Of a stretch of 20,000 bases of DNA, positions 11,730 through 15,957 are shown piece after piece. A model generated the notes under the pieces. The model had not been told where the DNA came from and did not search any database. It was given only the letters and a program-made list of their open reading frames with translations. The DNA is taken from the IMG/VR virus record IMGVR_UViG_3300032931_000293; one strand, written 5' to 3'. Position 1 is the first letter of the stretch. Each line of letters begins with the position of its first letter. The stretch comes from an uncultured virus (IMG/VR IMGVR_UViG_3300032931_000293) (Duplodnaviria > Heunggongvirae > Uroviricota > Caudoviricetes). A program made the position numbers and the translations under genes.

Positions 11730-11960
11730 ATGAGCAATCCAACTAAAGAATATCTTGAAGGTGAAACTCGGGCAATGGAGGATGATGCGGGAGTTAGTAT
11801 GCAAAGTCCTTTCGCAAATCCATACGATGAACGGGATGAGCCGGAAAAGGCTTTCGAGTGGCAATGTGGTTATAACAATTTTAACCATAACCGTAGGAAG
11901 AATATGATGGCACAGATGGAGAGTGAAGGAAGTTGGTACGACCCATACGATTCCCCTTGA
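11730..11960 (+). CDS. Hypothetical acidic protein, leaderless
   Basis: TTGACA(11696)-N15-TAGAAT-N7-ATG. Confidence 0.8.
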   Translation: MSNPTKEYLEGETRAMEDDAGVSMQSPFANPYDERDEPEKAFEWQCGYNNFNHNRRKNMMAQMESEGSWYDPYDSP

Positions 11961-11989
11961 CTTCTCGAAAAAGACTATAGAATAAGACA

Positions 11990-12250
11990 CATAACCCACA
12001 AGGAAGAAACCTTAAGATGCGAATAACAAGCCTGTCCTAACTATCTCCTACGATGGTTAGAGGGGCAAAGAGCGTAGGATAGGCTTCGAGTGTTGGATGG
12101 TTCCTATGCTCCTCGAAGCGACTTGCTTTCAGCCGGATGGTTTAGTCAAGCCATTGAACCGAGGATAAGCTTTCATTGGTTAGCAAGGGATTAAAGGCCC
12201 TACCCACTTGCCTAGAAAACAAGGGTGATAAGTGAAGCCGAGGGAATAAG
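11990..12250 (+). ncRNA. Candidate structured ncRNA A
   Basis: Promoter 11957 (N15-TAGAAT); only a 7-codon ORF follows the SD; stems AAGCCTGTCCTA/TAGGATAGGCTT, CTAACTAT/ATGGTTAG, GCTTCGAG/CTCGAAGC and further hairpins. Confidence 0.6.
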
Positions 12251-12341
12251 TTGACTTGCTCCAAAGGGCATATAACTAGACGGGGGTTGCTTGGCTCCAA
12301 CCCCCCGCTTGACTTCTTGAAAAAGACTATAGAATAACTCT

Positions 12342-12833
12342 CGTTGAAAACGATATAGAGTGGCTTAAGAGTGGGACGAGAATCATATGTTGCTAGTACC
12401 AACACCATGATATGGATAATCGGCGGGTATCAAACCATAATCCTATCTAATCAATAGGCAATGTCACTTGGGATAATATCCCTAACACTTCCGGGTGGAA
12501 CAACCGATAACGGAAACTCAATCCTACTCCTAAGCTACTTTATATCTTGACAATCCATGAACCGCCTTGGGTCAGAATGACCAAAGTATGTAGCACGATT
12601 CATACTAATGTACTCTACCCCAAGACCGTTCATAGATTGCCAAAAGTAATCTACCATTCAGGTCATTGAAAGTAGCTTGACTAGCTATCAAGTGAAGGTA
12701 TGATGCAAAGCGGTTAGCTACTGCAAAGCATGACGTTCAATCCGTTCGCCCGAAGCCACTAGTTACACATGGACCTCGATTGACCGTCCCGATGATAAAA
12801 GCAAAGGTCATAAATCATTGCTTCCATGTGTGT
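12342..12833 (+). ncRNA. Candidate large structured ncRNA(s) B
   Basis: Promoter 12309; 25-bp stem 12352-12376/12522-12546 with three G-U pairs, enclosing a multibranch domain; long hairpin 12551-12639; 9-bp stem 12765-12773/12823-12831; no credible ORF. Confidence 0.7.
12657..12758 (+). ncRNA. Possible degenerate tRNA-like RNA (no. 0)
   Basis: GACG-TTCAATC-CGTT T-arm followed at canonical spacing by GCCCGAA-G-CCA; 5' partner TTCAGGT; TTGA/TCAA D-like stem with a hairpin insert. Confidence 0.4.
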
Positions 12834-12931
12834 CTTGACTTCTTGAAAATGCTCTTTAGAATATGATTCATAAGGATAAGAGACTTGATAACGAGTCCTA
12901 GTGGCCTAATAGCTGCGAATATCCTTTATAT

Positions 12932-13055
12932 GAGGCGAGTAAGTTTTATTGGTAAAACTCAACCCAGTAGTGAACGGGGAACTACGCCAAAGTACAAGGC
13001 GACTATCCCAAGTAATGAATGGTTGGAACGTGGTTCAACTCCCGCCGCCTCTCCA
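12932..13055 (+). ncRNA. tRNA-like RNA no. 1 with a ~56-nt insertion in place of the anticodon loop
   Basis: Acceptor GAGGCG/CGCCTC plus T-CCA; D arm AGTTTT-ATTGGT-AAAACT; stem CAACC/GGTTG; T loop GG-TTCAACT-CC. Confidence 0.7.
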
Positions 13056-13095
13056 CTTGACAAAAGCTCTTTGCTAGTTAGAATGTAATCATGAT

Positions 13096-13226
13096 GGAAC
13101 GAAGTATCCAAATACTTTAAGAGGGTTGCAAACTTCTTTTAGTATGGTTTAAGGAACTCTATACCGTACCCAATCGGCTCTGGAGTGGGGTAATTCCTCA
13201 AGTTGGTTCAATCCCAACCCGTTCCA
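13096..13226 (+). ncRNA. tRNA-like RNA no. 2 (class II-like) with D-loop and anticodon-arm insertions
   Basis: Own promoter at 13057; acceptor GGAACG/CGTTCC; D stem TCC/GGA; CTCTA/TGGAG stem; variable arm GGGG-TAAT-TCCT; perfect T arm GTTGG-TTCAATC-CCAAC. Confidence 0.75.
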
Positions 13227-13232
13227 CTATAT

Positions 13233-13338
13233 GAGGGAATAGCATAAAGTCGTGACCTGATCCGTTGGAATGCGCCGGAACTACCTTGATGTACACAAGG
13301 ACTATCCGGAGAACGTGGAGCAATACCACACACCCTCG
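13233..13338 (+). ncRNA. tRNA-like RNA no. 3 with an extended anticodon arm
   Basis: Acceptor GAGGG/CCCTC; TA then D stem GCAT/ATGC; CCGGA/TCCGG stem extended by ACTA-CCTTG-ATGTACA-CAAGG-ACTA; T arm GTGG-AGCAATA-CCAC. Confidence 0.7.
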
Positions 13339-13345
13339 CAACAAG

Positions 13346-13373
13346 AACCCTATCCTAACCGATAGGGTTTTTT
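13346..13373 (+). terminator. Rho-independent terminator closing the RNA cluster
   Basis: AACCCTATC-ctaacc-GATAGGGTT-TTTT. Confidence 0.85.
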
Positions 13374-13418
13374 GTTGACTTATCCAAAATCACTATAGAA
13401 TATCTCCAAAGGAACAAC

Positions 13419-15353: not shown

Positions 15354-15419
15354 ATGACTACACTCTTTATTATTCTATTCGGCGGTTGGCTTCTAAGCCC
15401 TACCTTCAATGAAAATTAA
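15354..15419 (+). CDS. 21-aa hydrophobic peptide MTTLFIILFGGWLLSPTFNEN
   Basis: Promoter 15307, strong SD AAGGAG; overlaps the start of the next gene. Confidence 0.55.
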   Translation: MTTLFIILFGGWLLSPTFNEN

Positions 15420-15957
15420 TACTATTCTTATATTTCTCTCAACTGTTGCCCCTGCATCTGAGTTGAGTTTTACTAACATTAGCCAACCAATGTCAGTAGA
15501 AACTTATGTATTTGGGAAATCCCATCATACTAATCGTAAGGTCGATTGGAATGAAAATAACTATGGAATGGGCCTTGGAATCGCTTACACAATGCCTACT
15601 GATTATGGTCAGAAAATTGTTGACTTTACATTAATTGGAGGTACTTATAAAGACTCTTATAACGAATCTGCTCGATTCTTTATGCCTGGTATTAGACTTA
15701 ACTACGGTAAACGCAATGACTTACATTGGAATATCGGATTTAATGTAGGATATTTTGAGGGGTCGGGGTGCCGTGGTACTGGTATGCTCCCAAGTTTAGG
15801 AATTGGTTGGAATCGATTTGATATTTGCCTTACTGGGTCAATCCCTACTATTGGAGATAAACGAAATCCTAATGGTAGTCGTAATCCTGAAGATAATAGA
15901 AATACTTCAAGTGGCTTTATAGCAACTTTTTTAAGGATCAAAGTTGCCTCTTGGTGA
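15409..15957 (+). CDS. PagP-like outer-membrane beta-barrel (putative lipid A acyltransferase)
   Basis: Signal peptide; SHH...WNENNYGMGLG and YKDSYN align by eye with E. coli PagP WH...YNERPWGGGFG and FKDSWN; amphipathic strands; terminal Trp. Confidence 0.7.
   Translation: MKINTILIFLSTVAPASELSFTNISQPMSVETYVFGKSHHTNRKVDWNENNYGMGLGIAYTMPTDYGQKIVDFTLIGGTYKDSYNESARFFMPGIRLNYGKRNDLHWNIGFNVGYFEGSGCRGTGMLPSLGIGWNRFDICLTGSIPTIGDKRNPNGSRNPEDNRNTSSGFIATFLRIKVASW

What the first reader, a model, noticed from the sequence alone, without database searches (positions are those of the whole stretch)
12978..13309. Shared anticodon-arm module: GGA-ACTA-[stem]-GTACA loop-[stem]-ACTA-TCC
Seen: RNA 1 has GGGA-ACTA-CGCC-aaaGTACAa-GGCG-ACTA-TCCC; RNA 3 has CCGGA-ACTA-CCTTG-atGTACA-CAAGG-ACTA-TCCGG. 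The symmetric ACTA/ACTA internal loop and the GTACA loop are identical while the inner stems differ yet still pair, which is covariation within one genome. In RNA 3 the distal hairpin is a 5-bp stem with a 7-nt loop AT-GTA-CA, i.e. a displaced Tyr-like anticodon loop. GTAC also occurs in RNA 2's insert and in a loop of RNA B. Inference: the module is a protein-recognition or cleavage motif (it can be drawn as a 2-2-2 bulge-helix-bulge), or a palindromic kissing loop for RNA dimerisation.
Basis: partly seen in the sequence, partly recalled or inferred. Interest (0 to 1): 0.85.

Follow-up and report, generated by a model that had tools for sequence, protein, structure and literature searches.

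The report
Phage tRNA-shaped RNA with self-pairing tip
This phage carries two copies of a small RNA built like a tRNA but ending in a conserved hairpin whose tip can pair with a second copy of itself; the same design recurs in many unrelated phages, so it is probably an undescribed RNA that works as a pair and does not decode.

Summary
The shared module is real (12978-13008 and 13277-13307; 0 of 200 shuffles give two matches). It caps the anticodon arm of two tRNA-shaped genes and defines a family: 31 distinct copies in viral, metagenome and MAG contigs. Their tRNA bodies average 45% identity, yet the cloverleaf pairs covary. Corrections: the family loop is mostly 5x4 (AACUA/ACUA), symmetric only in RNA 3-type copies. 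It is not a BHB (0 of 27) or a tRNA intron. GUA is not fixed: the loop core is GTAC (28), GGCC (2) or TGCA (1), always self-complementary. In a scan leaving the core free, all 9 family hits among 85 rows were palindromic. Best reading: a non-decoding tRNA-scaffold RNA that homodimerises through an HIV-DIS-like kissing loop, with the invariant internal loop forming a two-fold docking site, probably for a host protein. No phage protein is shared by five complete carrier genomes. Only two or three variant events support dimerisation; nothing was tested at the bench. Rfam matches only tRNA; my literature searches found no description.

The parts
12835..12862 (+). sigma70-like promoter upstream of RNA 1
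   Evidence: 10 of 12 consensus match; member of a repeated promoter-like family (D1/D2); not shown to be active
12932..13055 (+). RNA 1: tRNA-shaped RNA, long-arm type (6-bp acceptor stem, D arm, T arm, encoded CCA at 13053-13055)
   Evidence: fold; ortholog in L166; model R1 75.4 bits, model built with this sequence; no ARAGORN or Rfam call
12960..13025 (+). RNA 1 extended anticodon arm: 5-bp stem 12960-12964/13021-13025, with two AGUA/GAA loop-E-like strand pairs at 12966-12974 and 13011-13019
   Evidence: the loop-E label is recalled, and the test was a loose text match without control
12976..13009 (+). module copy 1: outer helix, AACUA (12980-12984)/ACUA (13002-13005) internal loop, 4-bp stem 12985-12988/12998-13001, 9-nt loop with GUAC at 12992-12995
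13057..13084 (+). sigma70-like promoter upstream of RNA 2 and RNA 3
   Evidence: 11 of 12 consensus match; similar site at the same place in L166
13096..13226 (+). RNA 2: tRNA-shaped RNA without the module; enlarged D arm whose hairpin loop holds the palindrome TTGCAA (13126-13131)
   Evidence: fold z -2.41; 17 bits with R1; coordinates; no homolog found
13233..13341 (+). RNA 3: tRNA-shaped RNA, short-arm type (enlarged D loop, module directly on the anticodon stem, AGCAAUA T-loop, no encoded CCA)
   Evidence: fold; ortholog L172:126-235 at 77% identity with 6 two-sided pair changes
13275..13309 (+). module copy 2: AACUA 13279-13283, stem 13284-13288/13296-13300, 7-nt loop with UGUACA 6-nt palindrome (GUAC at 13291-13294), ACUA 13301-13304
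13343..13373 (+). terminator-like inverted repeat ending in a T run
   Evidence: inverted repeat I5; not called by the terminator scan

Best explanation
RNA 1 and RNA 3 belong to a phage family of non-decoding, tRNA-bodied RNAs of about 110-126 nt. Shown by sequence comparison: acceptor, D and T arms are kept as pairings; the anticodon loop is replaced by an arm of narrow length ending in a fixed head (internal loop AACUA/ACUA, 4-bp stem opened by an invariant C-G pair, loop R-A-W-[palindrome]-A-M). Inferred: the host's tRNA-processing enzymes cut the RNA out of early transcripts and the tRNA body keeps it stable. Two molecules then join tip to tip through the self-complementary four (in some copies six) loop bases, helped by the flanking adenines as in the HIV-1 DIS. 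This puts the two invariant internal loops next to a two-fold axis and the two tRNA elbows and 3' ends at a fixed distance. The most likely use (about 30% for this last step alone) is as a bivalent ligand or decoy for a dimeric host RNA-binding protein, such as a tRNA-targeting defence or stress enzyme.
For: Family: 21 of 22 metagenome matches, 7 of 39 and 1 of 3 viral matches and 2 of 3 GTDB matches lie in tRNA-shaped genes. 21 of 24 cloverleaf and module pairs have two-sided changes, covariation 0.795 against 0.224 shuffled; inner stem 98% paired. Insert length 48-59 nt in 27 of 27. Palindrome: with the four core bases left free, the 9 family members among 85 rows were GTAC (7) or GGCC (2). 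No single change of GTAC is a palindrome and 6 of 54 double changes are. The RNA 3 ortholog found by the covariance model has TGCA at the same offset from the stem. Flanking A residues are invariant in 27 of 27, as conserved purines flank the DIS palindrome; phi29 pRNA kisses through four pairs (PMC7357161, passages). No cognate phage protein and no antisense target signal.
Against: No experiment. Only two or three variant events carry the palindrome argument. The two GGCC copies may share one origin (not tested). The TGCA case arises by T>C, A>G and one inserted C; some 4-nt palindrome occurs in an 8-nt loop about 27% of the time, and at that offset 1 in 16 (my arithmetic). GTAC was required by the patterns that found most copies, so its conservation and that of AACUA/ACUA is partly built in. 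Predicted loop-loop duplexes are weak for GUAC and UGCA (-3.9 to -5.4 kcal/mol). One non-family sequence (4 contigs) also had a paired stem with a palindromic TATA core, so the coincidence can occur by chance. RNA 3-type copies have a short arm, against a strict spacing rule. The partner protein is a guess.
Confidence: 0.55

Rival explanations
1. The head is a monomeric protein-binding site or a substrate decoy (for example a GUA anticodon look-alike for a tRNA-Tyr nuclease or synthetase), and the palindromy is incidental.
For: AACUA, C-G, CUA and the loop adenines are invariant in 27 of 27 (partly imposed by the search). GTAC is in 28 of 31 copies. Defence nucleases that cut tRNA-Tyr are known (recalled, not read here).
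Against: GUA becomes GGC in two copies with the rest unchanged. The loop lacks U33 and a purine at 37. No single-change core variant was seen in the free-core scan.
Confidence: 0.22
2. C4-like antisense RNA: the tRNA body presents single-stranded loops that pair with phage or host mRNA.
For: 15 of 24 loci scanned have replication or recombination domains within about 4-5 kb on the RNA's strand. Earlier scan notes report such designs elsewhere (unchecked).
Against: Complements of the loop and of AACUA/ACUA are not enriched at -30..+15 of ORF starts in 8 carrier genomes or the window. The longest match of the module elsewhere is 9-12 nt, equal to shuffled controls. Host mRNAs were not tested.
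Confidence: 0.07
3. The insert is a tRNA intron, removed at a BHB-like site to give a decoding tRNA.
For: ARAGORN calls many homologs intron-containing tRNAs. 7 score as RF00005. Conserved tRNA introns are reported in Lak phages (10.1101/356790, passages).
Against: 0 of 27 have a 3-4-3 BHB. Only 4 of 27 have Y-U after the anticodon stem. 8 of 27 allow any excision to Y-U-N-N-N-R-N, at differing positions and anticodons; RNA 1 allows none. ARAGORN's anticodons disagree between homologs.
Confidence: 0.05
4. The head is a self-cleaving or ligand-binding RNA that may act as a dimer.
For: Invariant unpaired bases are clustered; loop-E-like strands occur in 18 of 26 long copies (no control).
Against: No Rfam ribozyme or riboswitch match. 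The core is very small (26 nt), and the RNA has no consistent position in mRNA leaders.
Confidence: 0.06
5. Decayed tRNA genes or a DNA-level signal (for example a 4-bp enzyme site displayed on a ssDNA hairpin).
For: GTAC, GGCC and TGCA are DNA palindromes; the neighbours are often ssDNA-annealing or exonuclease genes.
Against: Covariation with G-U pairs in acceptor, D, T and module helices; intact T-loops and D-loop GG; own promoters. These 4-mers are mostly under-represented in carrier genomes.
Confidence: 0.05

Closest known systems
Canonical tRNA (Rfam RF00005) and intron-containing tRNA
   Same: Acceptor, D and T arms, D-loop GG, TTCRA T-loop, short variable loop; 7 homologs pass the RF00005 threshold.
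   Different: 48-59 nt in place of the 7-nt anticodon loop, no common route to a canonical loop, mixed acceptor identity, CCA encoded in 9 of 27 by alignment. The window copies fail ARAGORN and Rfam.
HIV-1 dimerisation initiation site (DIS) and phi29 pRNA kissing loops (PMC7357161, passages)
   Same: Self-complementary apical loop flanked by conserved purines (DIS); 4-bp kiss (pRNA).
   Different: 4-nt palindrome (6 in some copies) rather than 6; carried on a tRNA body; pRNA uses two different loops. Works-like only, no homology claimed.
T4 RNA C and RNA D (species 1 and 2)
   Same: Stable 139- and 119-nt RNAs in a phage tRNA cluster; RNA C has a T arm; roles unknown (PMC3014915, one passage).
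   Different: Neither has the module or scores with model R1.
GOLLD, ROOL, ARRPOF, OLE multimeric ncRNAs (PMC12990946, passages)
   Same: Bacterial or phage ncRNAs that oligomerise by kissing loops; GOLLD and ROOL lie near tRNA arrays.
   Different: 255-833 nt and not tRNA-bodied; no Rfam match to them. The review's table lists no tRNA-shaped homodimer.
C4 antisense RNA of P1/P7 (recalled)
   Same: Phage tRNA-like scaffold displaying short conserved single-stranded motifs.
   Different: No complementary targets in carrier genomes; no Rfam C4 match.
Lak phage tRNAs with conserved 'introns' (10.1101/356790, passages)
   Same: Oversized phage tRNA genes with conserved inserts, predicted as introns.
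   Different: Their sequences are in a supplement I could not see, so identity or difference is untested.

Membership tests
decoding tRNA (RF00005) | paired acceptor, D and T arms | tested here: met
   89.9%, 81.5% and 93.3% of cells paired, with two-sided changes (alignment fitted to the model)
decoding tRNA (RF00005) | 7-nt anticodon loop with Y32, U33, R37 on a 5-bp stem | tested here: not met
   insert 48-59 nt; Y-U after the stem in 4 of 27
decoding tRNA (RF00005) | aminoacylation | not testable with these tools
   acceptor sequences and discriminator vary (A 13, C 7, G 5, T 2)
BHB tRNA intron | 4-bp helix flanked by two 3-nt bulges (PMC4090602, passage) | tested here: not met
   0 of 27 within the module plus or minus 8 nt; relaxed hBH/HBh forms were not enumerated
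BHB tRNA intron | excision restores a canonical anticodon loop at a shared position | tested here: not met
   possible in 8 of 27, inconsistent positions and anticodons
BHB tRNA intron | 2-2-2 or 3-2-2 drawing with a UA/UA central helix | tested here: inconclusive
   these bases never vary, so covariation cannot speak
DIS-type kissing homodimer (works-like) | self-complementary apical loop kept through sequence change | tested here: met
   GTAC 28, GGCC 2, TGCA 1; free-core scan 9 of 9 family hits palindromic; few independent events
DIS-type kissing homodimer (works-like) | conserved purines flanking the palindrome | tested here: met
   A two bases 5' and A directly 3' of the core in 27 of 27, but required by most search patterns; the TGCA copy lacks the 3' A
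DIS-type kissing homodimer (works-like) | dimer formation in solution | not testable with these tools
   only loop duplex energies computed
C4-type antisense RNA | loop complements present at target sites in the same genome | tested here: not met
T4 RNA C/D | sequence or model match | tested here: not met
any Rfam 15 family other than tRNA (GOLLD, ROOL, Y RNA, tmRNA, C4, ribozymes) | covariance-model match | tested here: not met
   window at E<=1 (one unrelated weak hit), 20 loci at gathering score, 4 loci at E<=0.5

The most novel reading that the evidence does not exclude
A natural tRNA homodimer by design: phages of several bacterial groups turned the anticodon arm into a dimerisation stalk, making a two-headed tRNA mimic that binds and neutralises a dimeric host tRNA-surveillance or anti-phage enzyme. 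Phages with two copies use matching or different palindromes to allow or prevent mixed dimers (window: GUAC and GUAC; L172: GUAC and UGCA).
Probability: 0.25. Interest if true: 0.9.

Novelty: new variant of a known kind. Interest (0 to 1): 0.72.

Why it matters
Natural RNA homodimers are rare (PMC12990946, PMC7357161, passages), and I found none described on a tRNA body. Oversized phage tRNA genes are routinely annotated as intron-containing or pseudo-tRNAs; this family shows that some are a distinct, selected RNA class. At about 120 nt with a built-in palindrome-swap control, both the dimer and its protein partner can be tested directly. That bears on the open question of what the stable non-decoding RNAs of phage tRNA clusters do.

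Tried and rejected
A fully free-loop scan also hit the limit at 117, so it is incomplete. A variable-stem-length scan gave 89 stretches; the 9 family hits all had the 17-nt interior (top 45 of 88 parsed rows printed). A scan for RNA 3-type genes gave 90 stretches and none real (top 15 printed). A relaxed motif scan of all 610 held sequences gave no new member. 401 genomes of the order of G010: 19 with pattern matches, only G010 real. No family member in cultured-phage or plasmid records by blastn with 7 queries. No relative of the 231-aa downstream protein. No whole genome is held for the window. No sequencing run was listed, which is no evidence on expression. Earlier findings: none by place or sequence or by one word search. 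T4 RNA C/D identity rejected. Phage-encoded partner: blastp at 1e-3 among 5073 ORFs found no cluster covering the five complete carriers G001, G002, G003, G005, G006; a remote homolog would be missed. My first reading of 12771-12821 as a theta ribozyme was not confirmed: I did not establish the HDV fold.

Full report
Setting. The window looks like part of a large phage genome: many short ORFs on one strand, HNH and homing endonucleases, a PagP-like gene and repeated sigma70-like promoters. About 11960-13410 is non-coding. ARAGORN finds no tRNA and Rfam nothing relevant. No whole genome is held.

Observation. The two hairpins are as quoted, at 12977-13009 and 13275-13309. They have the same register, fold as drawn with z -3.26 and -3.70, and are not reproduced in 200 shuffles (post hoc pattern). 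Each caps the anticodon arm of a tRNA-shaped gene. RNA 1 (12932-13055) has an encoded CCA and a long arm. RNA 3 (13233-13341) has an enlarged D loop and carries the module directly on the anticodon stem. RNA 2 between them is tRNA-shaped but lacks the module. GTAC elsewhere in the region is near chance, 5 against 2.9.

A family. Tighter patterns found the module in tRNA-shaped genes in 1 of 3 and 7 of 39 viral matches, 21 of 22 metagenome matches and 2 of 3 GTDB matches, titled Spirochaetia and Rhodospirillaceae. Of the 21 metagenome members, 19 were also scored with covariance model R1 at 62-103 bits (most were in the model's training set); L169 and L180 duplicate viral contigs and were not given to it. 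After merging duplicates there are 31 distinct copies. Carriers include complete 46-74 kb phages, a provirus and a 368-kb phage. Outside the module, 27 full-length copies average 45% identity and form 21 clusters at 75%. Even so, 21 of 24 modelled pairs have changes on both sides; covariation is 0.795 against 0.224 in shuffles and at most 0.15 with slid partners (the alignment is fitted to the model). The insert replacing the anticodon loop is 48-59 nt. AGUA/GAA-type strands face each other lower in the arm in 18 of 26 long copies (loose match, no control; the loop-E label is recalled). L166, L164, L172 and L175 share non-coding DNA or proteins with the window, and L166 and L172 also carry two copies.

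The head. On 30 copies the inner 4-bp stem is 98.3% paired with two-sided changes at three of four pairs. The outer helix is 81.3% paired in the 5x4 register AACUA/ACUA and 52.7% in the symmetric register. The symmetric form holds for RNA 3, whose ortholog changes CC/GG to UU/AA in that register. When spacing was allowed to vary, all 9 family hits kept the 17-nt interior. Most of the invariance of AACUA, ACUA and the loop was demanded by my patterns, so it is not independent evidence; the tRNA context of the hits and the stem covariation are.

The palindrome. A scan leaving the four core bases free gave 85 rows. The family members among them were GTAC (7 contigs) and GGCC (L368; L331 with one duplicate row). 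All 13 rows with a fully paired inner stem had palindromic cores. Four of these are one AT-rich TATA sequence with no outer stem and no model score, which I count as chance. Of the other 72 rows only L363, a family member, was palindromic. GTAC to GGCC needs two changes; no single change of GTAC is self-complementary and 6 of 54 double changes are. The model, not a pattern, found L172:126-235, the ortholog of RNA 3, whose loop has TGCA at the same offset from the 5' stem strand. This case is weaker than it looks: by descent it is T>C, A>G and one inserted C, and a 4-nt palindrome somewhere in an 8-nt loop has a chance of about 27%. L331's scaffold is atypical (35.6 bits), and whether the two GGCC copies arose independently is untested. 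So the evidence is two or three events, all in one direction, with no counter-example. AACUA and ACUA do not change in the GGCC copies, so the loop does not pair with them.

Rivals. Intron/BHB: the BHB is a 4-bp helix with two 3-nt bulges (PMC4090602, passages); 0 of 27 copies have it. 4 of 27 have Y-U after the anticodon stem, and 8 of 27 allow any excision to a canonical loop, at different positions with different anticodons. ARAGORN's intron calls on homologs give Pro, Thr, Asn, Val, Phe, Ser and Gln. Antisense: there is no enrichment of loop or internal-loop complements near start codons in 8 carrier genomes and the window, and no long complement elsewhere; host mRNAs are untested. Cognate phage protein: none is shared by the five complete carriers. 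Of 139 neighbouring ORFs of 110 aa or more I scanned 114, leaving out 25 overlapping opposite-strand frames and short-contig frames. 15 of the 24 loci represented have replication or recombination domains (YqaJ, ERF, RecT, AAA_24, PD-(D/E)XK, DnaB, ParB, polymerase) on the RNA's strand, and several sit in tRNA arrays. I read this as early or middle expression, not as a partner; no control set was run.

Mechanism. Shown: a selected tRNA body, a stalk of narrow length, a fixed head and a palindromic core. Inferred: processing by host tRNA enzymes, and tip-to-tip dimerisation aided by flanking adenines. In the HIV-1 DIS, conserved purines flank the palindrome and compensatory changes restore dimerisation; phi29 pRNA kisses through four pairs (PMC7357161, passages). 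Predicted loop duplexes are modest: -4.6 and -5.4 kcal/mol for the two GUAC loops, -8.9 for GGCC, -3.9 for UGCA. Stacking or a protein would have to help. Because all invariant bases lie within a few pairs of the dimer axis and no phage partner is evident, I favour a two-fold docking site for a host protein. A decoy role against tRNA-targeting enzymes is the likeliest use but has no direct evidence here. Confidence is 0.55 for the dimerising tRNA-scaffold RNA and about 0.3 for the decoy step.

What is known. Rfam gives only tRNA, for 7 module RNAs among 20 loci, and nothing for four close relatives. T4 RNA C and D are stable tRNA-cluster RNAs of unknown role (PMC3014915, one passage) but lack the module. 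A 2026 review of RNA oligomers lists GOLLD, ROOL, OLE and ARRPOF and no tRNA-shaped homodimer (PMC12990946, passages and table). Allo-tRNAs differ in the acceptor branch (PMC5389517, passages). Lak phages have conserved tRNA inserts read as introns (10.1101/356790, passages); their sequences are in a closed supplement, so overlap is not excluded. Searches (listings and abstract starts) showed no description of this family; the library lacks most subscription journals. C4 RNA, Y RNA and tRNA-Tyr-cutting defences are recalled, not read. Earlier AI notes describe other phage tRNA-scaffold RNAs, one with a palindromic loop. I did not check them, and sequence look-ups found no match to this family.

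Verdict. Novelty: new variant of a known kind. Interest 0.72.

Noticed in passing
window 12771-12821: Structured element matching Rhodococcus phages Francesca and Dorin and Sulfitobacter phages at 81-85%; in Francesca it lies just upstream of a tRNA-Lys gene. It recalls small ribozymes beside phage tRNAs (theta, PMC10879173 passages), but I did not establish the HDV fold; no Rfam match.
   Followed up: partly
window 12547-12645; L172 and L166: Long hairpin bounded by TTGACAA and TTGCCAA, 80% identical in L172, with ATGTACTC kept in an internal loop. Similarly bounded hairpins occur in L172 and L166. Possibly another ncRNA family.
   Followed up: partly
window 11970-12140: Promoter-led structured non-coding element conserved at 74-75% in L172 and L166.
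   Followed up: no
window 13096-13226: RNA 2 has an enlarged D arm whose hairpin loop carries a second palindrome, TTGCAA (13126-13131); it could be an independent dimerisation loop. No homolog found.
   Followed up: partly
L187:40-225 (-): The module-bearing tRNA-like unit is nested in a longer element with its own paired ends.
   Followed up: no
L331:3930-4085 (-): GGCC module on a non-cloverleaf scaffold with long paired ends inside a large phage tRNA array; the module can move between scaffolds.
   Followed up: partly
L121/L360, L504:12601-12703, L516:11712-11827, L174:1700-1806: Carrier phages hold further tRNA-shaped genes with other anticodon-arm inserts.
   Followed up: no
window 15409-15957: 182-aa protein matching a PagP-like PHROG (E 1.9e-10).
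   Followed up: no
window-wide: A repeated TTGAC-N16-TAGAAT promoter-like motif precedes many short gene groups and the RNA genes; short window repeats also recur in L164, L172 and L175.
   Followed up: no
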